DNA of 32,000 nucleotides from Delftia acidovorans NBRC 14950 (GTDB lineage Bacteria > Pseudomonadota > Gammaproteobacteria > Burkholderiales > Burkholderiaceae_C), in contig NZ_BCZP01000015.1 of the NCBI RefSeq assembly GCF_001598795.1, forward strand, positions 30,001 to 62,000, in the 5' to 3' direction. A model generated the notes under the pieces. The model was not told the origin of the DNA. It saw only the letters and a list, made by a program, of their open reading frames with translations, and did not search any database. This document shows positions 1,192 to 24,724 of this stretch, piece after piece. The number at the start of each line of letters is the position of its first letter. Positions within the stretch are counted from its first letter, which is position 1. Position numbers and translations under genes: made by a program.

Positions 1192-2772
1192 ATGACCGCA
1201 TCCATTGACGCCCACACCCTCAAATCCTGGCTGCACGACGGCCAGGAGATCGCGCTGCTCGACGTGCGCGAGCACGGCCAGTACGGCGAGTCGCACCTGT
1301 TCTACGCCACGCCCCTGCCCTACAGCCGGCTGGAGCTGGATGTGCCCCGCCTGGTGCCGCGCAGGCAGGTACGCGTCGTCACCTACGACGGTGGCGAGGG
1401 CGATGCCAGCGCGGGCGTGGCCGAGCGTGCCGCGCGCCGCCTCGAAGCCCTGGGCTATACCCATGTCGCCGTGCTCGAAGGCGGTGCCAAGGCCTGGAGC
1501 GCTGCGGGCTACACGCTGTTCGCCGGCGTGAACCTGCCTTCCAAGACCTTTGGCGAACTGGCCGAACACGCCTATGGCACGCCGCGCATCACGGCACAGC
1601 AGCTGGCGGCGCGCCAGGCGGCGGGCCTGCCCCTGGTGGTGCTGGACGGCCGGCCCGTCTCCGAGTTCCACAAGATGAACATCCCCGGCGCCATCTGCTG
1701 CCCCAATGGCGAGCTGGCGCTGCGCGTGAGCCGCCTGGTGCCCGATGCGGCCACGCCCATCGTGGTCAATTGCGCGGGCCGCACGCGCTCCATCATCGGC
1801 GCGCAGACCTTGATCAACCTGGGCATTCCCAACCCCGTCTACGCGCTGGAGAACGGCACCCAGGGCTGGTACCTGGCCGACCTGCCGCTGGAGCACGGCG
1901 GCACGCACCGCTATGGCGACGACTCGGCCAGCAGCGCGCTGCAAGCCCAGGCCCGCGCCCTGGCCGAACGCTTCGACGTGCCCGAGGTCGATGCCGACAC
2001 CGTGCGCGCCTGGAGCCAGGATGCTGCGCGCACGCTGTTCCTGTGCGATGTGCGCACGCCCGAGGAATTCAAGGCCGGTTCGCTGCCCGGCGCCCAGCAC
2101 ACGCCCGGCGGCCAGCTCATGCAGGCCGGCGACCAGTACGTGGGCGTGCGCGGTGCGCGCCTGGTGCTGTTCGACAGCGATGGCGTGCGCGCCCCCGTGG
2201 TGGCCAGCTGGCTGCGCCAGCTCGGCCATGACGCCTGCGTGCTGCGGGGCGGCCTGCAAAGCGGCCTGGACCTGGCACCGGCCCAGCCGCTCCAGGTCCC
2301 CGCACTGGCAGGCATCACGGCGCAGGCCCTGCATGAGCGCATGCGCCAGGGCGAGGTGGCCGTGGTCGATCTGCGCGCGGGCATGAAGTACCGCGCAGGC
2401 CACATCGCCGGGGCCCGCTGGTCCATCCGCCCGTGCCTTGCCAGCGATCTGGCCGGCGAGACGCGCCAGATCGTGCTGGTGGCCGACGAGCCCGGCATGG
2501 CGCAATGGGCCGCGCTGGAGCTGCAGGGCGCCGCGCCGCTGCTGCTCGAAGGCGGCCTGGCCGCATGGCAGCAGGCCGGCCTGCCCGTCGAGGCCACGCC
2601 CGACAGCCCCACCGACGCCGAGTGCATCGACTACCTGTTCTTCGTGCACGACCGCCACGACGGCAACAAGGAAGCGGCACGCCGCTACCTGGCCTGGGAG
2701 ACGGGCCTGGTGCCCCAACTGGACGCGCAGGAACTGGCCGCCTTCCGCCTGCCGGAGCCGGCAATGTCCTGA
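1192..2772 (+). CDS. Multi-domain rhodanese-like sulfurtransferase (four rhodanese repeats plus a C-terminal tail)
   Basis: ORF 1138..2772 from the ATG at 1192 (MTASIDAHTLKSWL...). Four roughly 100-aa rhodanese-like repeats. Only the second has an active-site loop, VVNCAGRTRS (Cys codon 1771-1773). The others have Asp or Ala at that position (YDGGEG, FDSDGVRA, VADEPGMA). Confidence 0.85.
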   Translation: MTASIDAHTLKSWLHDGQEIALLDVREHGQYGESHLFYATPLPYSRLELDVPRLVPRRQVRVVTYDGGEGDASAGVAERAARRLEALGYTHVAVLEGGAKAWSAAGYTLFAGVNLPSKTFGELAEHAYGTPRITAQQLAARQAAGLPLVVLDGRPVSEFHKMNIPGAICCPNGELALRVSRLVPDAATPIVVNCAGRTRSIIGAQTLINLGIPNPVYALENGTQGWYLADLPLEHGGTHRYGDDSASSALQAQARALAERFDVPEVDADTVRAWSQDAARTLFLCDVRTPEEFKAGSLPGAQHTPGGQLMQAGDQYVGVRGARLVLFDSDGVRAPVVASWLRQLGHDACVLRGGLQSGLDLAPAQPLQVPALAGITAQALHERMRQGEVAVVDLRAGMKYRAGHIAGARWSIRPCLASDLAGETRQIVLVADEPGMAQWAALELQGAAPLLLEGGLAAWQQAGLPVEATPDSPTDAECIDYLFFVHDRHDGNKEAARRYLAWETGLVPQLDAQELAAFRLPEPAMS

Positions 2773-2827
2773 TCCACGCAAAGAGCATCCGAACAGCCCA
2801 ACACCACATAACGACAGGAGACAAGAC

Positions 2828-3826
2828 ATGTTCGCAACTCTCAACCTTGCCAGGATGCTGGCCGCCAGCCTCGCGGCCCTGGCCATGCTCTCGCAGGCCA
2901 CGGCCGAGCCGCTGGCTGCGCGCAACGGCTATCCGGGCCAGCCGATCCGCTTCATCTCGCCCTTCCCGCCGGGCGGCGGCAACGACGCCAGCACGCGCTG
3001 GGTCACCACGCGGCTGACCGAGGCCACGGGCCAGCCCTCCGTGGTGGAAAACCGGGGCGGCGCAGGCGGCAACATCGGCGCAAAGGCCGTGGCCGAGGCC
3101 AAGCCCGATGGCTACACCGTGCTCACGGGCCAGGTCTCGCTGATGGCGGTGAACCCCGCGCTCTACAGCGCGCCGGGCTTCGATCCGCTCAAGAACTTCG
3201 TGCCCATCACGCAGATCAACGCGGCTCCGCTGGCCATCGTGGTCGCCTCGGCCTCGCCCCTCAAGAGCTTTGCCGACCTGGTGGCGCGCAGCAAGGGCGA
3301 GCCGGGCCGCGTCACCTATGCCACGCCCGGCAACGGCACGCTGTCGCACCTGGTGGGCGTGGTGCTGTCCAAGGAAAACGGCGTGCCCATGACCCATGTG
3401 CCCTACAAGGGCGCGGGGCCGGCCATCAACGATCTGCTGGGCCAGCAGGTCGATGTGCTGATCACCTCCACCTCGTCCGTGGCCGGCATGATCCAGGCGG
3501 GCCAGGTGCGTGCGCTGGCCGTCACCAGCCCGCGCCGCATCGGCGTGTTCGGCAAGGTGCCCACGCTGGAGGAACTGGGCCTGCGCAATGCGCGCTTCGA
3601 GGACTGGTACGGCTTCTTCGCTCCCGCCGGCACGCCGCCCGAGCGCGTTGCCTTCTTGCACGACGCCATCGTGCGCACCCTGCAACTGCCTGAAGTGACC
3701 AAACTCGTCGTCGATGGCGGCAGCGAAGTCGTGGCCAATACGCCCGAGGCCTTTGCCGCCCAGCTGCGCCAGGACATGGAGCGCTGGTCGCGCGTGGTCA
3801 AGCTCTCGGGCGCGAAGATCGACTGA
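2828..3826 (+). CDS. Bug/TctC-family periplasmic solute-binding protein (tripartite tricarboxylate transporter receptor)
   Basis: Starts at ATG 2828 behind AGGAGA. Signal peptide MFATLNLARMLAASLAALAMLSQATA. Family hallmarks are PFPPGGGNDA, VENRGGAGGNIGA, KPDGYT, HVPYKGAGPA and DWYGFFAPAGTP. Confidence 0.9.
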   Translation: MFATLNLARMLAASLAALAMLSQATAEPLAARNGYPGQPIRFISPFPPGGGNDASTRWVTTRLTEATGQPSVVENRGGAGGNIGAKAVAEAKPDGYTVLTGQVSLMAVNPALYSAPGFDPLKNFVPITQINAAPLAIVVASASPLKSFADLVARSKGEPGRVTYATPGNGTLSHLVGVVLSKENGVPMTHVPYKGAGPAINDLLGQQVDVLITSTSSVAGMIQAGQVRALAVTSPRRIGVFGKVPTLEELGLRNARFEDWYGFFAPAGTPPERVAFLHDAIVRTLQLPEVTKLVVDGGSEVVANTPEAFAAQLRQDMERWSRVVKLSGAKID

Positions 3827-8372: not shown

Positions 8373-10025
8373 CGGCAACCGCAACACCCTCCGATACTGC
8401 ATGGCCTCGGCCACATGCCCGGTCTCCACTGCCGCGCTGCCCGCCAGATCCGCAATGGTGCGCGCCACCTTGAGCGCGCGGTGGGTGCTGCGGGCCGACC
8501 AGCCCAGGCGTGCGGCGGCCTTGTGGGCGAAGGCCAGGGCCTCGGGCGACAGGCCCAGGTGGTCGTCCAGGGCCTGGCCCTGGAGCTGGTGGTTGGCACT
8601 GCCCTGGCGCTGCACGGCCAGCGCGCGGGCCTGGACCACGCGCCCGCGCACGGCCTCGCTGGTTTCGCCCGAGCGCGCGGCCAGCAGCTCCTGCGGGGGC
8701 AGGGCGCCGACTTCCACATGCAGGTCGATGCGATCCAGCAGCGGGCCGCTGATACGCGCCTGGTAGCGCGCCACCTTGTCGGGCGTGCAGCGGCAGCGCT
8801 GCACCGTCGACCCCCAATGGCCGCAGGGGCAGGGGTTCATGGCCGCGACGAGCTGAAAGCGCGCGGGGAATTCGCAGCGCTGGGCGGCTCTGGCGATGGT
8901 GATCTGGCCGGTCTCCAGCGGCTCGCGCAGCGCCTCCAGCGCACTGCGCGCGAACTCGGGGAATTCGTCCAGAAACAGTACTCCGTGGTGGGACTGCGAA
9001 ATCTCGCCGGGACGCGGTGGCGAGCCTCCTCCGACCAGGGCCACGGCACTGGCCGTGTGATGCGGGCTGGCCGTGGGGCGCTGGCGCCAGCGCTCCGGCG
9101 TGAAGCGGCCGGCCAGGCTGGCGATGGCGGCGGCCTCCAGCGCCTCGTCATCGCTCATGGGCGGAAGCAGGTCGGCAAAGCGCTGGGCCAGCATGGACTT
9201 GCCCGAGCCCGGCGGCCCCACCAGCAGCAGGCCGTGGCCTCCGGCCGCAGCGATTTCCAGCGCGCGCCGCGCCTGCGCCTGGCCGCGCACCTCGGCCAGG
9301 TCCAGGCTGCTGCGCACTGGGGCAGCGGGCTGAGGCTGCACCGCATGCCAGCCCGGGCCGGGGCAGGACCGGACATCGCTGGCTGCCGACAGATCGTCGG
9401 TGCTGTCGATGTCATGGGCGCCATCGACTCCATCGGCATCCTCGCCGTTGTCCGTGTCGTCGGCACCGTCCGTGTCCTGCTCCGTCTGCACCAGGGCATT
9501 GGCCGAGCGAGTGATGAAGCGGCGCACCACGTCCAGCAGGTGGTGCGCGCAGAAAACCTGGGCCGACGGCACGAAGGCCGCCTCCTGCGCGCTGCCCGGC
9601 GGCAGCACCAGGCGGGCGCCGTCCTGCTGGCGGTGCAGGGCCAGGGCTGTGGCCAGCGCGCCGCGCACGGGCCGCAGCGCACCCGACAGCGACAGCTCGC
9701 CCGCGAATTCGTAGTCGGCCAGCGCATCGCCATTGATCTGGCCGCTGGCCGCGAGAATGCCCAGAGCAATGGGCAGGTCGAAGCGCCCCGAATCCTTGGG
9801 CAGGTCGGCGGGCGCCAGGTTGACGATGATGCGTTTGTTGCTCGGGAACTCCAGCCCGGAGTTCAGCAGCGCCGAGCGCACGCGTTCACGCGCTTCCTTG
9901 ACCTCGACATCGGCCAGACCCACCAGCGTGAACGACGGCAGGCCGTTGGCCAGATGCACTTCCACAGTGACACGCGGGGCGGCCAGCCCCAGCAGCGCAC
10001 GACTTTGAACCAGGGCCAGACCCAT
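8367..10025 (-). CDS. comM: YifB/ComM-family Mg-chelatase-like AAA+ ATPase
   Basis: ORF 8367..10157 trimmed to ATG 10025 (MGLALVQSRALLGLAAPRVTVEVHLANGLPSFTLVGLADVEVKEARERV...). Lon-like N-domain, Walker A GPPGSGKSML, VLFLDEFPEF, the Cys cluster NPCPCGHWGSTVQRCRC, and a C-terminal ChlI-like tail. Confidence 0.9.
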   Translation of the reverse strand: MGLALVQSRALLGLAAPRVTVEVHLANGLPSFTLVGLADVEVKEARERVRSALLNSGLEFPSNKRIIVNLAPADLPKDSGRFDLPIALGILAASGQINGDALADYEFAGELSLSGALRPVRGALATALALHRQQDGARLVLPPGSAQEAAFVPSAQVFCAHHLLDVVRRFITRSANALVQTEQDTDGADDTDNGEDADGVDGAHDIDSTDDLSAASDVRSCPGPGWHAVQPQPAAPVRSSLDLAEVRGQAQARRALEIAAAGGHGLLLVGPPGSGKSMLAQRFADLLPPMSDDEALEAAAIASLAGRFTPERWRQRPTASPHHTASAVALVGGGSPPRPGEISQSHHGVLFLDEFPEFARSALEALREPLETGQITIARAAQRCEFPARFQLVAAMNPCPCGHWGSTVQRCRCTPDKVARYQARISGPLLDRIDLHVEVGALPPQELLAARSGETSEAVRGRVVQARALAVQRQGSANHQLQGQALDDHLGLSPEALAFAHKAAARLGWSARSTHRALKVARTIADLAGSAAVETGHVAEAMQYRRVLRLPS

Positions 10026-10070
10026 GGGCACCTCGCAGAAACGACAGACACAAAGCCAGACACAAAGGAA

Positions 10071-10096
10071 GAGGCCGCCAGCGGTGCGGCGGCCTC
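10071..10096 (-). terminator. GC-rich hairpin (GAGGCCGCC-N8-GGCGGCCTC) followed on the minus strand by a T-rich tract; possible terminator of the mvaA operon
   Basis: Perfect 9-bp stem read from the sequence. The minus-strand downstream sequence is TTCCTTTGTGTCTGGCTTTGTG. Located between the permease stop (10192) and the comM start (10025). Confidence 0.35.
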
Positions 10097-10191
10097 GGTG
10101 ACCCAGTATGGCAACGGCCTTGGACCTTGTGGGCGGCGGGTGCGGCGCTGCCCCCAAATCTCAGAATGTTCTGACCCTTGCGGCGCAAAAA

Positions 10192-11574
10192 TCAGAACAG
10201 CTTCACCAGCGCCGGAACGCTCAGCACGGCCGTGTAGTAGCCCATGAACTGCACGCCGGTGTTGAAGCCGAAGCCGCGTGACAGCAGGCCGCCGAGCAGG
10301 CCCATGGTCAGGATCACGAGCAGGCCCAGCAACTGGCCTTCCCAGACGCTGATGACGATGATCAGGCCCACGAAGGTGGCGATGATGGCCTCGTGGCTGA
10401 CCCGGCGCGAGACGAACAGCGCCGCGCTGCGCGCGAAGTTCATGGCGAAGGGGTAGGACACGAGGGCCGCCAGCAGCACGGCCAGCATGCCGTATCCCAG
10501 GAACTCCCAGTGGCTGAGCAGGTTGTGCAGGTTGTTCACCTGGCCCGTGGCGGCATCGACGGTGAAGCGCGGCGGCGCGTTGAACAGCGGCGCGGCGGGG
10601 CCGGCGGCCACCGGGCTCAGCGGCAGGCCGAAGGCGATCAGCGGGATCAGCGCCTCGGCGATGTAGGTGGCCTCGGTCACGCCGTTGCGCGCGCTCAGCA
10701 CCGTGGTCAGGCGGTGGTAGGCATGCTTGATGCGCGAGCCCACCAGCTCGCCCAGTACCACGGTCATGGCCACGGGGCTGAAGACGAAGGTGGCGCTGGA
10801 GATGGTGGCCGTGGCCAGGGTCCAGCGCGTCTGCACGCGGTCAAGCACCTTGAGCGGGTTGGGGAAGTAGCCCGACCAGCCCTTCACGTCGGGCGCCAGG
10901 TTGAACTGGCGCACCTTGTCGCGCAGCATGCGCTGGCGGCCGGCCGGCGAGATCACGGTGAACAGGTCGGCGATCAGCGGCCCGATGGCAATGCCCAGGA
11001 AGTAGCTGATGCTGAGCTTGACCTCGTACTTGGCGGTGAGGCTTTGCAGCGCAATGATGACGACCACGAACGGAATCAGCAGCATCACCGAGGCCCAGCG
11101 CCCCGCCGAGAAGTAGGCGATGAGGAGGGCGGCGGCCAGGAAGATCCAGGGCGCCGTCTTGGTGATCATGCTGCCGAAGGGCGCCAGCATCACGGCGAAC
11201 AGCACGGCCAGCGGCACGGCGACAAAGGCCGCGACGATGCCGCCCGAGACCATCTTGCGCAGCGCGATGTGGGGCACGCCCAGCTTGCGCAGCATGTTGG
11301 CGTCCTGCAGCAGCGGCGTGGCCAGCGTGTCGCCGGGAATGCCCAGCAGCGCCGTGGGCACGGCATGCGTCATGTGCTTGGCCACGGCACCGGCCAGGAA
11401 GAAGGTGAACACGCCGGCGGGCGGCACGCCCAGCAGCACCACCAGCAGGGTGAGCGGGGCCAGCGTGGTGGTCTCGTCCGTGCCGGAGACCAGGCCGATG
11501 GCGGCGAACACCACGGCGCCTATCAGTCCCATGGCGGCTGCGACGGCGATGTCATTGGTCAGCAGGGTTTCCAT
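10192..11574 (-). CDS. TctA/DUF112-like polytopic permease (large subunit of a tripartite-tricarboxylate-type transporter)
   Basis: 460 aa, highly hydrophobic with about 10-12 predicted TM segments. Gly/Pro-rich motifs typical of the family (GLVSGTDETTTLAPLTLL, LLGIPGDTLATPLL, PLSPVAAGPAAPLF). GGGAGGG Shine-Dalgarno sits inside the preceding gene, 1 nt after its stop. The family call is from memory and should be confirmed by HMM. Confidence 0.62.
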   Translation of the reverse strand: METLLTNDIAVAAAMGLIGAVVFAAIGLVSGTDETTTLAPLTLLVVLLGVPPAGVFTFFLAGAVAKHMTHAVPTALLGIPGDTLATPLLQDANMLRKLGVPHIALRKMVSGGIVAAFVAVPLAVLFAVMLAPFGSMITKTAPWIFLAAALLIAYFSAGRWASVMLLIPFVVVIIALQSLTAKYEVKLSISYFLGIAIGPLIADLFTVISPAGRQRMLRDKVRQFNLAPDVKGWSGYFPNPLKVLDRVQTRWTLATATISSATFVFSPVAMTVVLGELVGSRIKHAYHRLTTVLSARNGVTEATYIAEALIPLIAFGLPLSPVAAGPAAPLFNAPPRFTVDAATGQVNNLHNLLSHWEFLGYGMLAVLLAALVSYPFAMNFARSAALFVSRRVSHEAIIATFVGLIIVISVWEGQLLGLLVILTMGLLGGLLSRGFGFNTGVQFMGYYTAVLSVPALVKLF

Positions 11575-11575
11575 C

Positions 11576-12001
11576 TCATGCCCTCCCGGCCTTGTCGGCG
11601 AACAGCTCGTAGAGCTTGAGCTCCTTGAGTTCCTGCACCACGGCGGGCGGCAGGTCCTGCACCGTGCCCAGACCGCCGGGCTGGCGGGCCAGTTCCTCCA
11701 GCACTTCGCGGCGCCATTCGGGGTCGTTCGAGGTGTCCAGCTCGGTCACTTCCCGCTTGGGCGGAAAGGCGCGTGCGCAGATCACGCCGGCGATCACGCA
11801 GCCGGCAAGGCCCGCGAGCATGGCGTAGGCGTGGGCCAGCTGGCGCGACTCGACCACCGTGGCCAGCCAGCGGCTGGCCAGGTAGAAGCCCAGCACGCTG
11901 ATGCCGGTGCCGATGGCAATCGCCCAGGCCAGGTGGCGCAGGTCCACGGTGTCGCCCCAGACCTCGGCCAGCCGCCAGTCGGCGGGATCCTTGCTTGTCA
12001 T
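11576..12001 (-). CDS. Small two-TM membrane protein with an acidic soluble C-terminal tail (unknown family)
   Basis: This is the real, C-terminal part of the artefactual 844-aa ORF 11576..14110. ATG at 12001 is preceded by AAGGAGA. Sequence MTSKDPADWRLAEVWGDTVDLRHLAWAIAIGTGISVLGFYLASRWLATVVESRQLAHAYAMLAGLAGCVIAGVICARAF..., then a charged tail (PEWRREVLEELARQ...VVQELKELKLYELFADKAGRA). Confidence 0.6.
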   Translation of the reverse strand: MTSKDPADWRLAEVWGDTVDLRHLAWAIAIGTGISVLGFYLASRWLATVVESRQLAHAYAMLAGLAGCVIAGVICARAFPPKREVTELDTSNDPEWRREVLEELARQPGGLGTVQDLPPAVVQELKELKLYELFADKAGRA

Positions 12002-12042
12002 GTGTGTCTCCTTGGGTTTTTGTTTGTGGGGCCGCGCGCTGG

Positions 12043-13332
<1,290 letters not shown>

Positions 13333-13369
13333 GGAAGACATCTCCTCGGATCAAAACTCTGGTCGCCGG

Positions 13370-13422
13370 ACTGTAGGAAAACTGTACCGCTTTCAAAAGG
13401 TACAGTTTCGGGGAACAGTACC
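13370..13422. promoter_or_regulatory. Four copies of an ACTGTACC-like 8-mer (putative MocR operator array) in the mvaA/mocR divergent region
   Basis: ACTGTAGG 13370-13377, ACTGTACC 13381-13388, GGTACAGT 13399-13406 (inverted) and ACAGTACC 13415-13422. Boxes 2 and 3 are the core of a perfect 10-nt inverted repeat, AAACTGTACC-N10-GGTACAGTTT (13379-13408). Confidence 0.5.
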
Positions 13423-13450
13423 ATCGCACTGCAACATGAACGGAGGGCGC

Positions 13451-14866
13451 ATGGCAGACACCAGAGGGCGCTCGGCCCCCATTGCCGAGAAGCTGGCCGA
13501 CCTGATCGGCCAGCAGATCGCCGACGGCGTGTACCGCCCTGGCGACAAGCTGCCCTCGCTGCGCGAGCTGGCGCAGCTGCACCGCTATGCCAAGAACACC
13601 GTGGTCTCGGCCTTCGATCTGCTGGTCTCGCGCGGCATCGTGGAGCCGCGCCGGGGCTCGGGCTTTTACGTGCTGGGCTCGGGCCGCGGTGCCCAGCGCA
13701 CCGATGAGGACGCGGGCCAGCTGGGCCGCGCCATGGACATCGTCTGGCTGATGCGCGAGCAGCTCAAGACCCAGCCCGACTGCGTGGGCGTGGGCGACGG
13801 CTTTCCGCCCGTGGAATGGCTGGCCGACATGCGGCTGGACCGCTACCACCAGAAGGTGGTGCGCACGGGGCTGGGATCGCTGTTCCGCTACGGCAGCCGC
13901 TACGGCTATGCGCCGCTGCGCGACAGCCTGGTGCGCAAGCCGGGTGACTTCGGCCTGCAGGCCACGCCGGGCCAGCTGGTGCTGACCCACGGCGCCAACG
14001 AGGCCATGGACCTGGTCATCCGCTACTTCGTGCCGCCGGGGGCCACCGTGCTCGTGGACGAGCCCGGCTACTACCCGCTGTTCGGCAAGCTCAGGCTGGC
14101 CGGCGCCCATGTGGTCGGCGTGCCGCGCCTGGCCGACGGGCCCGACGTGGCCGCGCTCGAATCACTGCTGGCCCAGCACCGGCCGCGCCTGTTCTTCACG
14201 CAGTCGCTGGCCCACAATCCCACGGGCTCGGACATCTCGGCCGCCAAGGCCTACAAGGTGCTGCAGCTGGCCGAGCGCCACAACCTGCTCATCGTCGAGG
14301 ACGACCCGCTGGCCGACTTCAAGCCCACCTCGGCCGTGCGCCTGTCCACGCTGGACCAGCTGGAGCGCACCATCTACATCGGCAGCTTCTCCAAGTCCTT
14401 CTCGGCCGCGCTGCGCGTAGGCTTCATCGCCTGCAACGATGCGCTGGCCAGCGACCTGGCCGACCTCAAGGCACTGATCCACGTCAGCGGCTCCGAGTAC
14501 TGCGAGCGCATGGTGGACGTGATGCTGCGCGAGGGCCACTACGAGCGCCACCTGGTGCGCCTGCGCCACAAGCTGGGCCAGGCCACGGCCCAGGCGCTGG
14601 GCTGGCTCGATGCCCACGGCTGCGAGGTCTTTGCGCGCAGCCCGCAAAGCCTGTACCTGTGGGTGGCCTTCCCCGGTGTGCAGGACTCGCTGCGGCTGGC
14701 CGAGCAACTGGTGCCGCGCAAGCTCAGCATGGCGCCGGGCCGTGTCTTCCACGTCGATCCCTCGGCCGTCTCGCGCTGGTCGCGGTGCAACGTCAGCGCC
14801 ATGCTCGATCCGAGGTTCCAGGCCGCGATGGGGCAGGTGCTGGCAGCAGACGGCCGAGTACAGTAA
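13451..14866 (+). CDS. MocR-subfamily GntR regulator (wHTH fused to a PLP-dependent aminotransferase-like domain)
   Basis: ORF 13049..14866 trimmed to ATG 13451 (GGAGGG upstream; ATG 13436 is an alternative). GntR HTH: KLPSLRELAQLHRYAKNTVVSAFDLLVSRGIVEPRRGSGFYV. Fold-type I aminotransferase domain with the PLP-lysine motif YIGSFSKSFSAALRVGF. Confidence 0.9.
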   Translation: MADTRGRSAPIAEKLADLIGQQIADGVYRPGDKLPSLRELAQLHRYAKNTVVSAFDLLVSRGIVEPRRGSGFYVLGSGRGAQRTDEDAGQLGRAMDIVWLMREQLKTQPDCVGVGDGFPPVEWLADMRLDRYHQKVVRTGLGSLFRYGSRYGYAPLRDSLVRKPGDFGLQATPGQLVLTHGANEAMDLVIRYFVPPGATVLVDEPGYYPLFGKLRLAGAHVVGVPRLADGPDVAALESLLAQHRPRLFFTQSLAHNPTGSDISAAKAYKVLQLAERHNLLIVEDDPLADFKPTSAVRLSTLDQLERTIYIGSFSKSFSAALRVGFIACNDALASDLADLKALIHVSGSEYCERMVDVMLREGHYERHLVRLRHKLGQATAQALGWLDAHGCEVFARSPQSLYLWVAFPGVQDSLRLAEQLVPRKLSMAPGRVFHVDPSAVSRWSRCNVSAMLDPRFQAAMGQVLAADGRVQ

Positions 14867-14944
14867 CGCGTTGCCCGAGGAACAGGCCAAGCTGCGCCTG
14901 GATCAGGGTATTCGTATTGATCAGGCGGATGACTGGACGGAAAG

Positions 14945-16054
14945 ATGCGCGGAAACCCATATTTCTTGCTGCTGGCCTGGCTCCTCGCAGCCTGTGCAAT
15001 GGCTCCAGTCCAGGCGGGCCAAACGGACTCATCTTCAATATTGCAGCCCCTGGCGCGCCAGCAAGAGCCATTGGTGGGCAGCTACATGCATGTACTGGTC
15101 ACCATGGAGGTGGCAGGTTCGAGCCAGGCTCTCAAGAAGGGTCCCGAGCCGGCTTTCAGGAGCCAGCAAGAAGAGATTCTTGCTGGGATCGAGGGCGAGT
15201 ACATCCCTGCGGCGGTTTGGCGTGGTGCTGCGGGCCACATGGCTCTCTATGTCACGGATTCCGGACTCAAGAAGCTGTCTGAAAGTGGCTTGGTCAGTGC
15301 GATAAAGCCGGTGGTGGGCAACTTGGATATCTTCGATCCCGATGAGGAGCTCAAGAAGATCGAGCGGGAAATCAGGAAAAAGGGATCTGCCCTGATCAGC
15401 GTGGTGCCCGCATGCGTACAGGGCAAGGAGTCCGCGGGGGGCGCCGCTGGGCCTGACCCCTGCGGAGATATCGAAGTGAGGAAGCGCGCATTCATTGGCT
15501 CTTTGCATCCTGGGCACTTCAAGGGCTTTTGGATGGAGGGAACCATGGCCATGGGCCAGATGTGGGGCAAGGCCTATCCGCAGGGAAATCCGTCCGTCGA
15601 CCTGGATGCACGAATCGAGGGGCTGTACGAACTGAAAAGCAGAAAGGATGTCCTGAGCCTCAATCTGGTCAACAGGGATTTGAAGCGTCTGGATGCCGAC
15701 GTCCATATTCCCCGTGTTGCCTGGCATACCGCCGCTCTGGACTCCTTTCCGCATGGTGCGGGCGCCGTCGTCCGTATCGGCTTGAGGTCCTATCCTGGTT
15801 ATGCACCAAGGATTTCCATGCTCACGGGAACGGAGCTCAGGGAACAGGAGGCGAGCGTACGCCGAGTGTTCATCGAGATCATGGAAGATCTTGAGCCCGG
15901 GTCCACCGAAGCACTTGACCTGAAACCTCAGATGTCTGGCCTTCTTCCGGTCGCAGAAGTACGTCTCAAGCGAGAGTCTTTCTTGCGCATGCATGCACAT
16001 CCGGATCCTCGAATTGCGCGCGTTGACTGGGATACCTGGGTGCCCTTTCCCTGA
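14945..16054 (+). CDS. Hypothetical exported protein, probable lipoprotein (no recognisable family)
   Basis: 369 aa. N-terminus MRGNPYFLLLAWLLAACAMAPVQAG has a lipobox-like LAAC. Codon usage is atypical for the window (AGG, AGA, TTG, ATA, AAA), and hand counts of single 60-nt lines give about 50-55% G+C versus about 70% in neighbours. The signal peptide favours this strand over the antisense ORF 15035..16000. Confidence 0.6.
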   Translation: MRGNPYFLLLAWLLAACAMAPVQAGQTDSSSILQPLARQQEPLVGSYMHVLVTMEVAGSSQALKKGPEPAFRSQQEEILAGIEGEYIPAAVWRGAAGHMALYVTDSGLKKLSESGLVSAIKPVVGNLDIFDPDEELKKIEREIRKKGSALISVVPACVQGKESAGGAAGPDPCGDIEVRKRAFIGSLHPGHFKGFWMEGTMAMGQMWGKAYPQGNPSVDLDARIEGLYELKSRKDVLSLNLVNRDLKRLDADVHIPRVAWHTAALDSFPHGAGAVVRIGLRSYPGYAPRISMLTGTELREQEASVRRVFIEIMEDLEPGSTEALDLKPQMSGLLPVAEVRLKRESFLRMHAHPDPRIARVDWDTWVPFP

Positions 16055-16086
16055 GGCGGGTTTGTCATTGCAACCGGCTCGCCAAC

Positions 16087-17049
16087 TCAGTGTCCGCTGG
16101 CCTGCGCGCGCAGCAGCGCGATGAAGCGCTGCTGCTCCTGCGTGGGCGCGTCATCGGTGCGGGTGAGGATGCCGAAGGGCGCCATGGGCACGTCGATGCA
16201 GACCGGCAGCGCCCTGACCAGGCCCATGCGCAGATAGTCCTTGAGCGCGGATTCGGACAGCAGCATCACGGCGTCGGTCAGTTGCACCAGTTGCTGCATG
16301 GAGTACACCGAGCTGCATTCGATGATGTCGGCGGGCGCGGGCAGCTCCAGGCGCTGCAGCAGCTGGTCGAGCGCGATGCGCGCGGGGCTGGTGGCCGGCT
16401 GCAGTATCCAGGGCCAGTCGCCGACAAGCTCTTGCCAGCCCAGCTTGCGCCGGCGTGTCAGCGGATGGCCGCTGCGCACGACGACCAGCAGCCGCTCGTT
16501 GCCCAGTTCCTCGAAGCTGTAGCTGCTGCTGTGGGCCGCAGGGCTGCGCCGCGCAATGGCCATGTCGATGCGGCGCTGGTCCAGCAGACGCAGCACCTGG
16601 TCGCTGGTGTCGCCCATGATGCGTAACCGCAGCTGCGGGCTTTGCGCCTTCATGCGGGCCACGGCCGTCATCACCAGGTCGGGTGCGGCGCCCATGATGG
16701 TGCCGATGGACAGGTAGCCGTAGCCGCCCTGGCGGCGCGCGGCCAGGTCTTCGGCGCAGCGGTCCAGGCTGTTGAGCGAAGCCTCGGCAAACCGCACCAG
16801 CTGCGCGCCCAGCGCCGTGGGCCGCATGCCGCGCGGCAGGCGCTCGAACAGCTGGCAGCCGAACATGTCCTCGATCTCGCGCAGCATGCGCGTGGCCGCA
16901 GGCTGGGACATGGCCAGGCTCAGCGATGCGCGGTGCAGGTTCAGGCTCGATCCCAGCGCCACCAGCATGTGCAGGTGCTTGTAGCGCAGACGGTTGAGCA
17001 GGCTGCGGTGCAGCACGGGCGGGTCGGATTCGGGCGTGTTCGCAGGCAT
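16087..17049 (-). CDS. LysR-family transcriptional regulator (probable regulator of the rhamnonate cluster)
   Basis: HTH region LRYKHLHMLVALGSSLNLHRASLSLAMSQPAATRMLREIEDMFGCQLFERLPRG plus a LysR substrate-binding domain. Divergent from 17299. Start ambiguous (ATG 17049 or 17094); neither has a clear Shine-Dalgarno. Confidence 0.85.
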   Translation of the reverse strand: MPANTPESDPPVLHRSLLNRLRYKHLHMLVALGSSLNLHRASLSLAMSQPAATRMLREIEDMFGCQLFERLPRGMRPTALGAQLVRFAEASLNSLDRCAEDLAARRQGGYGYLSIGTIMGAAPDLVMTAVARMKAQSPQLRLRIMGDTSDQVLRLLDQRRIDMAIARRSPAAHSSSYSFEELGNERLLVVVRSGHPLTRRRKLGWQELVGDWPWILQPATSPARIALDQLLQRLELPAPADIIECSSVYSMQQLVQLTDAVMLLSESALKDYLRMGLVRALPVCIDVPMAPFGILTRTDDAPTQEQQRFIALLRAQASGH

Positions 17050-22086: not shown

Positions 22087-23070
22087 CTATCGCTTCACGG
22101 TGGCTGACGTTATGAACCGGGCAATGGTGCTGGAAACCCCGGGCACTAGCGGCAGCCCCTCCTTGTCATAGGTTGCAAGATTGGCAGCGCGATCGTTGGT
22201 CTCCACCTTCTTGAGCACATGGTTGGTGGCGGGCAACAGCACAAGCTTGGCGTTCGGTGCAGCCTTGGCCAGACGCTGAGCATCCTTTGGCTTGATCTGC
22301 AGGTCGCGCTCACCTTGAATGATGAGCACGGGTTTGGAATAGCCCGCTATCAGGCGAGCGGGGTCCAGCGCGAAGGTGTTGATGAGAAAGCCTTGTACGC
22401 TGGCATGGAACATGGTGTTGAGCGGCCTGTCCATCTGGCGGGTATCCACGCGCCTGCCTGCTTCCAGAGCATCGATGACCGGTAACGCCTGGTCCAGGAT
22501 CGGTGCATTGGCGGGGTCTTCCTTGAGCTGTTCCCGAAGCGTCTGCCCCATTGGGCGACCAGGAGCTGCTACCAATATCAGTCCGCAGATATCGGAGCGG
22601 CCCTGGCCAGCCTCCAGAGCGACCAGTCCACCTTCACTGTGTCCCAGCACCCAGACGCATTGGGCACCGGTCTCGCTGCGGATGGCGTCCACCCAGTGGT
22701 GCACATCTTCGGCATAGGCCTGGATGGTCACGGCATTGGGGTCCTCCACGGCCTTGTAGCTTTCGAACATGCCACGTTTGTCGATGCGTACGGTGGCAAT
22801 GCCCTGGGTGGCCAGTTCCTGTGCGAGCAGTTGGTAGGTCGAGGCTTTGAGGCCGAACGGGCTGTTGCCGTTGCGGTCAGTGGGGCCTGAGCCGGGGACG
22901 ATCAGTACGACCGGCGGCGCGCTTTGGCTCGGCGTCAGCAGAACTCCCCGCAGTGGGTCAAGTGGCCCCGTTGCCTGCAGCGGCTTTTCGCCAAGGACGG
23001 CCGTGGCCGGTGCGGCCATGGTGGTACTTGCGCAGATGGCAGCCGCCAGGCCGAGGAGTAGAGCTTTCAT
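22087..23070 (-). CDS. Secreted alpha/beta-fold serine hydrolase
   Basis: ORF 22087..23310 trimmed to ATG 23070. Signal peptide MKALLLGLAAAICASTTMAAPA. Nucleophile elbow VLGHSEGGLV, late Asp/His region (GERDLQ ... ATNHVL). Noticeably lower G+C than neighbours (one 60-nt line hand-counted at about 57%). Confidence 0.75.
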   Translation of the reverse strand: MKALLLGLAAAICASTTMAAPATAVLGEKPLQATGPLDPLRGVLLTPSQSAPPVVLIVPGSGPTDRNGNSPFGLKASTYQLLAQELATQGIATVRIDKRGMFESYKAVEDPNAVTIQAYAEDVHHWVDAIRSETGAQCVWVLGHSEGGLVALEAGQGRSDICGLILVAAPGRPMGQTLREQLKEDPANAPILDQALPVIDALEAGRRVDTRQMDRPLNTMFHASVQGFLINTFALDPARLIAGYSKPVLIIQGERDLQIKPKDAQRLAKAAPNAKLVLLPATNHVLKKVETNDRAANLATYDKEGLPLVPGVSSTIARFITSATVKR

Positions 23071-23128
23071 GGGAAAGGCCGCAGAGTTGATCTGCGTGCC
23101 ATTGGAGCATGCTTGTCTGTCGGCCCTG

Positions 23129-23644
23129 TCAGGTCGAAGCCGTGCGCTTGCGGTTGCGCGGCGCCTTGGGCGGCGGGCTGCTGGCCTCCAGCTCCCGCGC
23201 CCGCGTGCGGATGCGCGCAAAGGCGCTGGCCATGGCCTGCAGCTCGGGCTCGGGCACGGCGTCCATGAGCTCGCGGTTGATGGCCTGCACCTGCGGGAAC
23301 AGCTCGGCATGCAGGGCGCGGCCCGTGTCGCTCAGGCGCAGCAGCGCGCGGCGCGCATCGCCCACCTGGCTCTCTTTCCACAACAGCCCCTTGGCCAGCA
23401 GCGCCGTGACCGCGCGCGAGGTGCGCGTGCGGTCCAGTTGCGCCTGCTCGGCCAGCTGCGAGGGCTGCAGCTGCCCGGCCTCGGCCAGCAGGCAGAGCAT
23501 GCGCCACTCGCGCCGCGTAATGCCGTAGCGGCCCTCGCACAGGCGCACCACGCGGCTGCCAGCGGCCGCCTGCAGCCGCGCCAGGTGGTAGAGGAACATG
23601 TCGTCGAGCACGGCGGGGTGGCGCCAGCGGTGGAGGTCGGTCAT
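23129..23644 (-). CDS. MarR-family transcriptional regulator
   Basis: 171 aa. wHTH core ITRREWRMLCLLAEAGQLQPSQLAEQAQLDRTRTSRAVTALLAKGLLWKE...DARRALLRLSDTGRAL. Divergent from the Bug/sulfatase genes and upstream of the hydrolase on the same strand. Confidence 0.85.
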   Translation of the reverse strand: MTDLHRWRHPAVLDDMFLYHLARLQAAAGSRVVRLCEGRYGITRREWRMLCLLAEAGQLQPSQLAEQAQLDRTRTSRAVTALLAKGLLWKESQVGDARRALLRLSDTGRALHAELFPQVQAINRELMDAVPEPELQAMASAFARIRTRARELEASSPPPKAPRNRKRTAST

Positions 23645-23746
23645 GGACTCGCGGGCCGGTTTCGGGTTTACGCTAGGGATGATGGATTAGATGCATTGTC
23701 GGCGGCCTGCGTACATTGGCCGCAAGACAACGACAAGGAGACAAGT

Positions 23747-24724
23747 ATGCCCAGCCCCCTCGCAGCCCTGGCGCGTGCCGCCCTGGCTTTGGTCGCCGCC
23801 GGCCTGTGCGCGGCGCCCGCCCTGGCCCAGGAATGGCCCAAGGCCAAGCCCATCCGCATCGTCGTGCCCAATCCGCCGGCCGGCCCGTCCGACATCTCGC
23901 TGCGCCCCGTGGCCGCCGCCATGCAGGCGGCGCTGGGCCAGGCCGTGGTCGTGGACAACAAGCCCGGCGCCAACGGCAACATCGGCGCGGCCGAGGTCGC
24001 GCGCTCCGCGCCCGATGGCTACACCTGGCTGTGGGCCATGGACCCAGTGCTCACCGTCAACCCCCATGTCTACAAGAACATGGGCTACAAGGCCGACGCG
24101 CTGGAAACCCTGGTCGTGGCCGCGCGCTTCTCGCAGACCCTGGTCTGCGGCCCGGGCACGGGCTTCAAGTCCGTCAAGGACATGGTGGCCGCCAGCAAGA
24201 CGCGCGAGCTGACCTATGCCTCGGGCGGCGCGGGCTCGCCGGGCCACCTGGTCATGGAATCGCTGCTGGCCACCTCGGGCGCCAAGATGGTCCACGTACC
24301 CTACAAGGGACCGGCGCCGGCCATGCAGGACCTGCTGGGCGGCCAGGTGGACTGCGGCTTCCTGGCTGGCCCCACGGTCTTCCCCCAGGTCCAGAGCGGC
24401 AAGCTGATCGCCCTGGCCACCTCGGGCAAGACGCGCTCGGCGCTGGCGCCCGAGCTGCCGACCATCGCCGAATCGGGCTTTCCCGAGTTCGACGGCACCT
24501 TCTGGATCCTGCTGGCCGCACCCAAGGGCGTGCCGCCCGCTGTGCAAAAGCGCTTTGTCGATGCCATGAACGAGGCCATCCGCGCGCCCGAGCAAAAGGA
24601 ACGCGCCAAGGCCCTGGACATCGAGATGGTCGGCTCCACCGTGGCCGAGGCCCAAGCGCGCGCCAAGGGCCAGTCCGCGCAGTGGGCCGCCCTGGTCAAG
24701 CGCATCCACCTGACCAACGACTGA
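23747..24724 (+). CDS. Bug/TctC-family periplasmic solute-binding protein
   Basis: ATG 23747 after AAGGAGA. Signal peptide MPSPLAALARAALALVAAGLCAAPALA. Family motifs: VDNKPGANGNIGA, APDGYT, HVPYKGPAPA, FWILLAAPKGVP. Confidence 0.9.
   Translation: MPSPLAALARAALALVAAGLCAAPALAQEWPKAKPIRIVVPNPPAGPSDISLRPVAAAMQAALGQAVVVDNKPGANGNIGAAEVARSAPDGYTWLWAMDPVLTVNPHVYKNMGYKADALETLVVAARFSQTLVCGPGTGFKSVKDMVAASKTRELTYASGGAGSPGHLVMESLLATSGAKMVHVPYKGPAPAMQDLLGGQVDCGFLAGPTVFPQVQSGKLIALATSGKTRSALAPELPTIAESGFPEFDGTFWILLAAPKGVPPAVQKRFVDAMNEAIRAPEQKERAKALDIEMVGSTVAEAQARAKGQSAQWAALVKRIHLTND

What the first reader, a model, noticed from the sequence alone, without database searches (positions are those of the whole stretch)
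10192..14866. Orphan degradative HMG-CoA reductase operon with its own atypical transporter: candidate minimal mevalonate-scavenging system
Seen in sequence: mvaA (12043-13332), a 141-aa 2-TM protein (41-nt gap, AAGGAGA Shine-Dalgarno) and a 460-aa TctA/DUF112-like permease (1-nt gap) form a compact minus-strand operon. It is divergent from a MocR regulator across a repeat-rich 118-bp region. MvaA retains the catalytic Glu (VEEPS), Lys (THNKGIMNG), Asp (GNDWRA) and His (QRGHMALHA) motifs of the P. mevalonii enzyme. The window has no HMG-CoA synthase, mevalonate kinase or decarboxylase, and no HMG-CoA lyase. Established, from memory: oxidative class II HMGRs occur in proteobacteria that make isoprenoids by the MEP pathway (enzymes from Burkholderia and Delftia have been studied). 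To my knowledge their physiological role and the uptake route for mevalonate are unresolved. Inference: importer plus one oxidoreductase would suffice to feed external mevalonate, or a related 3-hydroxy acid, into HMG-CoA. The leucine-pathway HMG-CoA lyase would then take it to acetoacetate and acetyl-CoA. That would assign both a function to the orphan HMGR and a substrate to a new TctA-type carrier.
Basis: partly seen in the sequence, partly recalled or inferred. Interest (0 to 1): 0.7.

Follow-up and report, generated by a model that had tools for sequence, protein, structure and literature searches.

The report
Candidate bacterial mevalonate importer beside HMG-CoA reductase
Next to the already crystallised Delftia HMG-CoA reductase sit two membrane-protein genes that, judged by gene neighbourhoods across several phyla, most likely form a previously unrecognised two-subunit mevalonate uptake system, which would explain why bacteria without a mevalonate pathway keep this enzyme.

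Summary
The window is Delftia. mvaA (12043-13332) is 99% identical to the crystallised D. acidovorans reductase (PDB 6DIO). It is followed by a 141-aa two-helix membrane protein and a 460-aa divergent TctA-family permease, and it faces a MocR regulator across 118 bp.

- The block mocR<->mvaA-small-permease is conserved in 76 of 80 genome loci across about 15 Burkholderiales genera, while the flanks differ.
- HMG-CoA lyase joins the block in several lineages.
- Other lineages keep mocR<->mvaA but put TRAP or ABC transporter genes in the permease slot.
- Relatives only 33-43% identical keep the small+large pair. It sits next to HMG-CoA reductase in Fusobacterium, Anaerococcus and a Planctomycete. 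In two other loci it sits next to mevalonate kinase; in the one contig that continues, phosphomevalonate kinase, the decarboxylase and IDI2 follow. In another it sits next to HMG-CoA lyase.

Mevalonate and HMG-CoA metabolism is the only theme shared by these neighbourhoods.

The pair is not a classical tripartite system. The small subunit is a new family, not TctB, and no TctC binding protein travels with it. Public annotation calls the genes only "tricarboxylate transporter permease" and "hypothetical protein".

The parts
10192..11574 (-). Large membrane subunit: a 460-aa divergent TctA-superfamily permease and the candidate mevalonate carrier
   Evidence: Pfam PF01970 at 66 bits against a cut-off of 28.9; no NCBIfam hit. 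Only 227 relatives at E<=1e-3 among 1.84 billion cluster representatives. Invariant [P/S]GTDET motif. AF2 model has pLDDT 84.7 and pTM 0.86 and is almost entirely helical. No solved structural match.
11576..12001 (-). Small membrane subunit: 141 aa, two transmembrane helices, a new family that is not TctB
   Evidence: No Pfam family even at E<=10. Two hydrophobic segments. Homologues sit directly upstream of the permease in every clade examined. W15, D17, L24, P81, K82 and R83 are invariant, within EVWGD and PKR motifs. The 1-nt gap or overlap with the permease start is conserved.
12043..13332 (-). mvaA: class II NAD(H)-preferring HMG-CoA reductase, 429 aa
   Evidence: 99% identical to PDB 6DIO (D. 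acidovorans). Close to 6P7K (B. cenocepacia, 690 bits) and 1QAX (P. mevalonii, 671 bits). TIGR00532 at 424 bits. Catalytic E, K, D and H residues and the NAD-specificity Asp146 equivalent are retained.
12007..12013 (-). Shine-Dalgarno AAGGAGA of the small-subunit gene
   Evidence: Read directly from the sequence, 5 nt upstream of the ATG at 12001.
13333..13450 (.). Divergent control region with the candidate MocR operator: inverted repeat 13379-13388 / 13399-13408 plus half-site-like copies at 13370-13377 and 13414-13422
   Evidence: Perfect 10-nt inverted repeat. The core CTGTAC-N12-GTACAG is exact in 49 of 74 Burkholderiales intergenic regions. In 24 more, one half-site is exact; in the 12 of these printed, the partner is a near-match. 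No Rfam family in the region.
13451..14866 (+). MocR-type (GntR wHTH + PLP aminotransferase-like) regulator, orthologue of Daci_0288
   Evidence: Pfam GntR and Aminotran_1_2; below cut-off for every named NCBIfam MocR subtype. Paired divergently with mvaA in beta- and alphaproteobacteria whatever transporter follows. PLP lysine invariant. Listed with an mvaA regulon in PMC5320631 suppl..
10071..10096 (-). Terminator-like hairpin about 96 nt downstream of the permease stop; possible end of the operon
   Evidence: Consensus scan: 10-bp stem with 8 GC pairs and a T-rich tail. The region's count is not above shuffles, so this is weak evidence.

Best explanation
The three minus-strand genes form one operon for taking up and oxidising external mevalonate.

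1. The 141-aa two-helix protein and the 460-aa TctA-superfamily protein form a two-subunit secondary carrier in the inner membrane. It imports (R)-mevalonate, most likely without a periplasmic binding protein.
2. MvaA then converts mevalonate + CoA + 2 NAD+ to HMG-CoA.
3. An HMG-CoA lyase encoded elsewhere in Delftia cleaves HMG-CoA to acetoacetate and acetyl-CoA. In other lineages this lyase is encoded inside the operon.
4. The divergent MocR regulator controls the operon through the CTGTAC-N12-GTACAG operator.

What is shown: gene identities, operon anatomy, conservation of the block, the conserved operator, and the metabolic neighbourhoods. What is inferred: the substrate, the import direction, independence from a binding protein, the inducer and the energy coupling.
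For: (1) The block mocR<->mvaA-small-permease is conserved in 76 of 80 genome loci from about 15 Burkholderiales genera. Only these four genes are shared; the flanks differ. B. cenocepacia has it too.

(2) HMG-CoA lyase is recruited into the operon in varying positions. It follows the permease in Comamonas L012, Variovorax L050, Roseomonas L083, Lichenicola L084 and metagenome L095. It lies between mvaA and the small gene in Paraburkholderia L054. It lies beside mocR in Rhizobium etli L082. In Aquabacterium L069 the operon also carries CoA-transferase A/B subunits and a secreted lactonase-like protein.

(3) Non-orthologous displacement. Ruegeria, Tistrella and L103 have mocR<->mvaA followed by TRAP DctPQM. 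Azospirillum, Brucella and L104-L106 have ABC binding-protein genes in the same neighbourhood.

(4) Permeases only 42-44% identical keep HMGR-small-permease under a sigma-54 activator in Fusobacterium, Anaerococcus and a Planctomycete.

(5) Permeases 33-34% identical sit as small-permease-mevalonate kinase in L174 and L176. In L174 the operon continues with diphosphomevalonate decarboxylase, phosphomevalonate kinase and IDI2; the L176 contig ends within the kinase gene. All reach NCBIfam equivalog cut-offs. Another clade sits between a CoA transferase and ECH + HMG-CoA lyase.

(6) Biosynthetic HMGR operons (HMGR-thiolase-HMGCS-DUF35) lack the permease.

(7) No TctC, DctP or ABC binding-protein homologue was found in ten loci from the other clades (myxobacteria, Fusobacterium, Anaerococcus, Planctomycete, an archaeal-looking contig, L134, L136). 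TctC genes in Burkholderiales flanks are no more frequent than expected from their abundance (21 of 80 loci, variable position).

(8) The enzyme is the NADH-preferring D. acidovorans HMGR.
Against: - No experiment of any kind supports the claim. Neighbourhood evidence cannot give direction, affinity or stereospecificity.
- The window has no HMG-CoA lyase, and its presence elsewhere in this genome was not checked.
- The MocR regulator keeps its PLP lysine in all 23 sequences aligned (the window's and 22 orthologues). Known MocR effectors, from my knowledge, are amines or PLP, and mevalonate has no amino group, so the inducer is unclear.
- Delftia and relatives carry many orphan TctC genes, two of them in this window, so help in trans cannot be excluded.
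- All characterised TTT and TRAP systems need their binding protein (PMC5812351).
- The distant contexts were sampled by eight look-ups, not systematically.
- One clade (L177) sits with a CoA transferase, ECH and lyase but no reductase in the 6.5 kb seen. Some members may therefore carry 3-hydroxy-3-methylglutarate or a similar acid.
Confidence: 0.75

Rival explanations
1. The substrate and pathway are the same, but the carrier is a true tripartite system. It depends on one of the many orphan TctC (Bug) binding proteins encoded elsewhere, so the operon is not self-sufficient.
For: All characterised TTT systems use a TctC protein, and orphan TctC genes far outnumber TctAB pairs in Bordetella and relatives (PMC5812351). 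This window alone has two TctC genes, within ORFs 2438-3826 and 22847-24724. Some Achromobacter and Cupriavidus loci have a TctC gene just downstream, on the opposite strand.
Against: No TctC gene belongs to the conserved block in 80 loci. None was found in ten loci from myxobacteria, Fusobacterium, Anaerococcus, a Planctomycete, an archaeal-looking contig and two metagenome contigs. No transporter binding-protein family appears in the Pfam listings of the mevalonate-kinase loci. The block moves between genomes and onto IS-flanked plasmids as a unit. The partner subunit is not TctB.
Confidence: 0.17
2. The carrier takes a related compound rather than mevalonate itself. Candidates are mevalonolactone, 3-hydroxy-3-methylglutarate, 3-methylglutaconate or another 3-hydroxy acid. 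MvaA would then act on a product made inside the cell.
For: The L177 clade sits with a CoA transferase, an enoyl-CoA hydratase and an HMG-CoA lyase-like gene, with no reductase in view. Brucella, L105 and L106 combine mvaA with a CoA transferase and a hydratase (Brucella also with HMG-CoA lyase). Aquabacterium has a secreted lactonase-like gene in the operon. The PLP-type regulator hints at a different inducer.
Against: The only metabolite common to HMG-CoA reductase and to mevalonate kinase (followed in L174 by the rest of the lower pathway) is mevalonate. In Delftia the operon has no enzyme other than MvaA, whose substrates are mevalonate, mevaldehyde and HMG-CoA.
Confidence: 0.06
3. The system runs in reverse. 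HMG-CoA from leucine breakdown is reduced to mevalonate as an electron sink or as an exported metabolite, and the carrier is an exporter.
For: HMG-CoA reductase is reversible. The TIGR00532 'degradative' label also falls on biosynthetic enzymes (Listeria and Enterococcus), so the label says nothing about direction.
Against: The operon recurrently contains HMG-CoA lyase and acetoacetate-activating CoA transferase, which are catabolic. The same carrier family precedes mevalonate-consuming kinases. The Burkholderia enzyme is described as oxidative in the title of Schwarz et al. 2014, as cited in PMC13370337.
Confidence: 0.02

Closest known systems
TctCBA tripartite tricarboxylate transporter (TTT family, TC 2.A.80; Salmonella citrate system, Bordetella BctCBA)
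   Same: The large subunit belongs to the same Pfam family (PF01970). A small membrane protein is encoded next to it. It is presumably an ion-gradient-driven uptake carrier for an organic acid.
   Different: No TctC binding protein travels with it. The small partner has 2 helices, not 4-5, and is unrelated to TctB. The gene order is small then large. The TctA signature G-Hy2-P-G-Hy-G is replaced by G-x-x-[P/S]-G-T-D-E-T, and the second (TM7) copy is not recognisable. A single-sequence search returned only 227 relatives in 1.84 billion representatives. The inferred substrate is a monocarboxylic hydroxy acid.
Pseudomonas mevalonii mvaAB mevalonate catabolic operon (HMG-CoA reductase + HMG-CoA lyase; from my knowledge of Rodwell-laboratory work)
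   Same: MvaA matches the P. mevalonii enzyme closely (671 bits) and has the same catalytic and NAD-specificity residues. Relatives of the Delftia operon carry the lyase, and Paraburkholderia L054 has the same mvaA-lyase order.
   Different: Delftia has no lyase in the operon. As far as I know, the transporter genes were never described for P. mevalonii. No close relative of that strain was found (best 75% identity), so its own locus could not be inspected.
Orphan archaeal and bacterial TctA homologues proposed to work without a binding protein (Winnen et al. 2003, as reviewed in PMC5812351)
   Same: A TctA-family protein without TctB or TctC nearby. One member of this family lies on an archaeal-looking contig (L088).
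   Different: That proposal named no substrate and no partner subunit. Here a conserved small partner and a specific metabolic context are defined.
MocR group 'Daci_0288' regulon (Suvorova & Rodionov 2016, PMC5320631 supplement)
   Same: It is the same regulator and operon. It is listed for D. acidovorans SPH-1 as 'MvaA, hypothetical protein, hypothetical protein', and with TRAP FcbT1-3 in Rhodobacterales and Bordetella petrii.
   Different: It is a table entry only. The terms searched (HMG, hydroxymethylglutaryl, mevalon, mvaA, TctA, tricarboxylate) are absent from the main text, the group carries only a locus-tag name, and the two membrane genes are listed as hypothetical.
TRAP DctPQM transporters encoded after mvaA in Ruegeria pomeroyi and Tistrella mobilis
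   Same: They occupy the same position after mocR<->mvaA, and each has a large permease plus a small membrane subunit.
   Different: They are an unrelated protein family with an obligatory DctP binding protein.

Membership tests
TTT / TctCBA transporters | Large subunit matches the TctA family model (Pfam PF01970) above the curated cut-off over its full length | tested here: met
   66 bits against a cut-off of 28.9. Residues 16-433 match profile positions 4-413 of 423. The score is weak, and no NCBIfam model matches.
TTT / TctCBA transporters | Signature G-Hy3-G-Hy3-G-Hy2-P-G-Hy-G in TM1 and again in TM7 (as given in PMC5812351) | tested here: not met
   TM1 reads G19-AVV-F23-AAI-G27-LV-S30-G31-T-D33-E-T. 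The second Gly is absent, and an invariant Asp replaces the last Gly. The family consensus is IPGTDET. Around the second half, only F263, S266 and P267 are conserved, and no second copy is seen.
TTT / TctCBA transporters | TctB-type small subunit with 4-5 transmembrane helices | tested here: not met
   The partner has two hydrophobic segments. Neither it nor eight homologues hit TctB or any other Pfam family in a scan at E<=10, although HMMER's filters drop most matches above about 0.1.
TTT / TctCBA transporters | TctC periplasmic binding protein encoded with the membrane genes | tested here: not met
   None in the conserved block of 80 loci. None in ten loci of other clades. Two TctC genes in the window lie about 6 and 11 kb from the cassette, next to unrelated genes. 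Use of a TctC in trans could not be tested.
TTT / TctCBA transporters | Demonstrated binding-protein-dependent, ion-coupled uptake | not testable with these tools
   Needs transport assays.
Class II NAD(H)-dependent HMG-CoA reductase (P. mevalonii type) | Family models, catalytic Glu/Lys/Asp/His, and Asp146 for NAD specificity | tested here: met
   PF00368 at 374 bits and TIGR00532 at 424 bits. 99% identical to 6DIO. Motifs and the Asp146 equivalent align with 1QAX. The TIGR00532 label alone does not give direction.
MocR/GabR-type PLP-dependent regulators | N-terminal GntR wHTH, C-terminal fold-type-I aminotransferase-like domain with the PLP lysine, and repeats in a divergent promoter | tested here: met
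   Pfam GntR and Aminotran_1_2. Lysine invariant in the S/T-F-S/A-K motif in all 23 aligned sequences. Conserved inverted repeat. Below cut-off for every named NCBIfam subtype, so it is an unnamed subgroup.
Mevalonate catabolic operon (mvaAB type) | HMG-CoA lyase encoded with mvaA | tested here: not met
   There is no lyase in the 32-kb window. It is present in the operon of relatives.
Mevalonate catabolic operon (mvaAB type) | Growth on mevalonate and induction by mevalonate | not testable with these tools
   Needs culture experiments.

The most novel reading that the evidence does not exclude
The small two-helix protein and the PGTDET-type TctA relative define a new two-subunit mevalonate transporter family that needs no binding protein and is spread across bacteria and some archaea. 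It is used in two opposite ways. In MEP-pathway bacteria (Burkholderiales including B. cenocepacia and Achromobacter, some alphaproteobacteria, Fusobacterium) it feeds mevalonate into HMG-CoA for carbon and energy. In low-GC bacteria it feeds scavenged mevalonate straight into the lower mevalonate pathway, which implies isoprenoid-precursor cross-feeding or auxotrophy. The linked MocR would be a natural mevalonate-responsive regulator with a non-amine effector.
Probability: 0.45. Interest if true: 0.8.

Novelty: new variant of a known kind. Interest (0 to 1): 0.7.

Why it matters
As far as I know and could find, no bacterial mevalonate transporter gene has been named.

- **Orphan reductases.** This candidate would give a physiological role to the 'orphan' oxidative HMG-CoA reductases of Burkholderia and Delftia. 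These enzymes have been crystallised and kinetically studied without a known purpose.
- **Transporter family.** It would provide the first defined substrate and partner subunit for a TctA relative that appears to work without TctB or TctC. That bears on how the poorly understood TTT family functions.
- **Metabolic engineering.** It would offer ready parts: a mevalonate importer, and a natural regulator-operator pair that could serve as a mevalonate sensor.
- **Microbial ecology.** The link to the lower mevalonate pathway in other bacteria suggests that mevalonate is exchanged between microbes, or taken from hosts.

Tried and rejected
- **Subunit docking.** I modelled a 572-aa small-permease fusion found in a metagenome (P0426). 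The small part had pLDDT below 50, so the model is uninformative. An alignment meant to add small-subunit homologues was mis-aligned by MAFFT and dropped.
- **P. mevalonii locus.** A metagenome scan with its MvaA sequence found nothing closer than 75% identity. The name is not in the taxonomy copy.
- **Remote homology of the small protein.** Only noise, even at E<=10.
- **A canonical TctA in the fetched flanks, for direct comparison.** A family HMM found none.
- **Literature.** No paper in the library links mevalonate to TTT or TctA, to a bacterial transporter, or to MocR. The Burkholderia enzyme papers (Schwarz 2014, Peacock 2019) are not held, so I could not check whether they comment on the neighbouring genes.
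- **RNA elements.** No Rfam family in 9800-16200.
- **Spurious ORFs.** The 844-aa ORF 11576-14110 and other long overlapping ORFs are artefacts of 70% G+C. Third-position GC picks out the genes listed here.

Full report
**What is in the window.** The window is Delftia DNA. The small protein is 100% identical to a 'MULTISPECIES: hypothetical protein [Delftia]'. The permease matches D. tsuruhatensis and D. acidovorans contigs at 99-100%.

On the minus strand lie three genes:
- mvaA, 12043-13332
- a 141-aa gene, 11576-12001
- a 460-aa gene, 10192-11574

The gaps are 41 nt and 1 nt, with AAGGAGA ahead of the small gene. A MocR-type regulator starts at 13451 on the plus strand, 118 bp from mvaA. 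That spacer carries a perfect 10-nt inverted repeat and two more half-site-like copies.

MvaA is 99% identical over all 429 residues to the crystallised D. acidovorans HMG-CoA reductase (6DIO). It is close to the B. cenocepacia (6P7K) and P. mevalonii (1QAX) enzymes. All four catalytic motifs and the Asp that sets NAD specificity are conserved. A 2026 preprint cites the Delftia enzyme as NADH-preferring and the Burkholderia enzyme as NADH-only.

The 460-aa protein matches Pfam TctA over its whole length, but weakly: 66 bits against a cut-off of 28.9. It matches no NCBIfam model. The 141-aa protein matches nothing and has two hydrophobic helices. The rest of the window has no mevalonate-pathway or HMG-CoA lyase gene.

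**How unusual the permease is.** A search of 1.84 billion cluster representatives found only 227 relatives at E<=1e-3, most of them fragments. About a dozen were full-length clusters at 26-42% identity. The very numerous ordinary TctA proteins were not reached.

The family has an invariant motif [P/S]-G-T-D-E-T at the end of the first helix. Canonical TctA has P-G-Hy-G there, and the second copy of the TctA signature is not recognisable (motif as given in PMC5812351).

An AlphaFold model is confident (pLDDT 84.7, pTM 0.86) and almost entirely helical. It has no counterpart among solved structures by Foldseek.

**Conservation of the block.** A scan of one genome per species found at least 575 stretches encoding a relative. 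The 80 best (79-100% identity) come from Delftia, Acidovorax, Comamonas, Diaphorobacter, Xenophilus, Variovorax, Lampropedia, Aquabacterium, Bordetella, Achromobacter, Pandoraea, Cupriavidus, Paraburkholderia and Caballeronia, plus two myxobacterial genera.
- In 76 of the 80, mvaA lies directly upstream of small-permease.
- One of the other four is a truncated contig. Three are myxobacteria with small-permease only.
- Clustering all flanking ORFs showed that only these four genes are shared. The Delftia flanks are not conserved outside Delftia.
- B. cenocepacia, source of the other studied 'orphan' reductase, has the same block.
- The operator core CTGTAC-N12-GTACAG is exact in 49 of 74 intergenic regions. 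In 24 more, one half-site is exact; in the 12 printed, the partner is a near-match.

**Evidence for the pathway.** HMG-CoA lyase (PF00682) has been recruited into the block repeatedly and in different positions:
- after the permease in Comamonas L012, Variovorax L050, Roseomonas pRo-1, a Lichenicola plasmid and metagenome L095
- between mvaA and the small gene in Paraburkholderia L054, which is the mvaA-lyase order known from P. mevalonii
- next to mocR in Rhizobium etli pRsp8C3a

In Aquabacterium the operon continues with a signal-peptide-bearing SMP-30/gluconolactonase-like protein, the lyase and both subunits of a CoA transferase (PF01144). My reading from sequence is that this is an acetoacetate-activating enzyme. 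The alphaproteobacterial copies sit on plasmids between IS elements. Between Delftia and Roseomonas the permease is more conserved (75%) than the reductase (52%).

**The transporter slot.** Many reductases of this clade are not followed by this permease.
- Of 38 plasmid or chromid records with a homologue, only 6 have it.
- In Ruegeria pomeroyi and Tistrella mobilis, the same mocR<->mvaA pair is followed by TRAP DctP-Q-M.
- In Azospirillum it is followed by an ABC binding protein.
- In Brucella intermedia it is followed by CoA transferase, hydratase, HMG-CoA lyase and ABC binding proteins.

In an independent metagenome sample, 15 loci had a reductase at least 65% identical to the P. mevalonii enzyme. 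Nine have the small gene downstream, followed by the permease wherever the contig continues; one has TRAP, three have ABC binding proteins and two have neither. Different transporter families in one conserved slot is the classic sign that the slot encodes the uptake step.

More distant reductases in that sample mostly sit in HMGR-thiolase-HMG-CoA synthase-DUF35 biosynthetic operons, without any of these transporters.

**The decisive contexts.** I looked up eight distant members of the permease family, 33-44% identical to Delftia's. Identities were computed for seven of them.
- Fusobacterium hwasookii, Anaerococcus and a Planctomycete MAG have: sigma-54/PAS activator, AtuA, AtuA-ferredoxin-like, HMG-CoA reductase, small, permease.
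- Two low-GC contigs begin small, permease, mevalonate kinase. One (L174) continues with diphosphomevalonate decarboxylase, phosphomevalonate kinase and type-2 IPP isomerase; the other (L176) ends within the kinase gene. Each gene is above its NCBIfam equivalog cut-off.
- One has CoA transferase, small, permease, enoyl-CoA hydratase and an HMG-CoA lyase-like gene.
- One has small-permease about 1 kb upstream of HMG-CoA synthase, thiolase and DUF35.
- One, on an archaeal-looking contig, has small-permease alone.
- A metagenome contig (L136) has sigma-54 activator, small, permease, lyase, mvaA.

The small proteins of all these clades are homologous. They share EVWGD...PKR motifs, and W15, D17, L24, P81, K82 and R83 are invariant. 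They always abut or overlap the permease start.

A catabolic reductase and an anabolic kinase share only one metabolite, mevalonate. This is the strongest argument for the substrate, and it is independent of the Delftia operon.

**Is it tripartite?** No TctC gene is part of the conserved block. TctC genes occur in 21 of 80 Burkholderiales flanks at variable positions. That is about what their abundance in these genomes would give by chance, by my rough estimate.

No TctC, DctP or ABC binding-protein homologue was found in the myxobacterial, Fusobacterium, Anaerococcus, Planctomycete, archaeal-looking, L134 or L136 loci. The gene after the Fusobacterium permease has no signal peptide. The partner protein is not TctB.

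I therefore favour a two-subunit carrier that needs no binding protein. This runs against all characterised TTT and TRAP systems and cannot be settled without assays. The window itself holds two orphan TctC genes.

**Prior knowledge.** Public names for these proteins are 'tripartite tricarboxylate transporter permease', 'DUF112 domain-containing protein' and 'hypothetical protein'.

A supplement to Suvorova & Rodionov 2016 lists the regulator group 'Daci_0288'. Its regulon is 'MvaA, hypothetical protein, hypothetical protein' in D. acidovorans SPH-1, and MvaA plus TRAP in Rhodobacterales and B. petrii. No function is assigned in the table, and the searched terms are absent from the main text.

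Ten full-text searches found no paper connecting mevalonate with this transporter type. The two Burkholderia enzyme papers are not held.

**Open problems.**
- The MocR regulator keeps its PLP lysine in all 23 sequences aligned (the window's and 22 orthologues), yet mevalonate has no amino group. The inducer and sensing chemistry are unexplained.
- The Delftia operon needs an HMG-CoA lyase from elsewhere, which I could not check.
- The direction of flux in the anaerobe clusters with AtuA is unknown.
- The distant contexts are a small sample.

**Verdict.** It is a new variant of a known kind and is readily testable.

Noticed in passing
L085:3552-8365, L087:3552-8374, L089:3463-8380: In Fusobacterium hwasookii, Anaerococcus and a Planctomycete MAG, HMGR-small-permease is preceded by AtuA (PF07287) and an AtuA-ferredoxin-like gene (PF23544). 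A sigma-54/PAS activator gene lies upstream. AtuA has no assigned activity that I know of. Its fixed place beside a reductase and a mevalonate carrier suggests an anaerobic route acting on HMG-CoA or mevalonate.
   Followed up: partly
L174:5760-11400 and L176:5751-8204: L174 is a low-GC contig carrying small-permease directly ahead of mevalonate kinase, diphosphomevalonate decarboxylase, phosphomevalonate kinase and IDI2. L176 shows small-permease-mevalonate kinase up to its contig end. This points to mevalonate scavenging for isoprenoid synthesis and possibly mevalonate auxotrophy. Whether these genomes lack HMG-CoA synthase and reductase was not checked.
   Followed up: partly
L069:11451-16026: The Aquabacterium operon has a signal-peptide-bearing SMP-30/gluconolactonase-like protein between the permease and HMG-CoA lyase. 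CoA-transferase subunits A and B follow. The lactonase-like protein could open mevalonolactone outside the cell.
   Followed up: partly
L052:9432-11386, L053, L057:9456-11386: Cystobacter fuscus and Archangium minus carry small-permease at 83-85% identity to Delftia's, without mvaA or mocR. In Cystobacter the pair follows a CheA-like kinase gene. This looks like horizontal transfer of the transporter pair alone into bacteria that, from my knowledge, use the mevalonate pathway.
   Followed up: partly
window 13451-14866 and orthologues: The PLP-binding lysine (S/T-F-S/A-K) is invariant in all 23 aligned MocR sequences paired with mvaA, although the presumed inducer, mevalonate, is not an amine. 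How this regulator senses its signal is unexplained.
   Followed up: partly
window 2438-3826 (+) and 22847-24724 (+): Two orphan TctC (Bug-type) binding-protein genes. One lies next to rhodanese and Cys/Met PLP-enzyme genes, the other next to a sulfatase gene. Neither is linked to the mvaA block. The listed ORFs are over-extended at the 5' end.
   Followed up: partly
window 14945-16054 (+): A 369-aa ORF with no family match in a stretch of lower G+C (0.58, against about 0.69). It is present in the D. tsuruhatensis locus L001 (97%) but gave no hit in the D. acidovorans locus L002. It may be a strain-specific insertion beside mocR.
   Followed up: no
L091:7019-14160, L105, L106: In Brucella intermedia and two metagenome loci, mocR<->mvaA is followed by a family-III CoA transferase, an enoyl-CoA hydratase and ABC binding-protein genes (Brucella also has HMG-CoA lyase). 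This suggests a wider regulon that also handles free 3-hydroxy-3-methylglutarate or 3-methylglutaconate.
   Followed up: no
P0426 (572 aa, metagenome protein): A single Fusobacterium-like sequence fuses the small subunit, minus its C-terminal tail, to the permease in one reading frame. It may be a natural fusion or an assembly artefact. The join is consistent with both termini of the small protein being cytoplasmic.
   Followed up: partly
plasmid hits H24, H25, H28, H30, H32: Several haloarchaeal plasmids (Salinigranum, Halalkalicoccus, Halocatena, Halomontanus, Natronosalvus) carry a class II reductase 51-55% identical to Delftia's. Their neighbourhoods were not examined.
   Followed up: no
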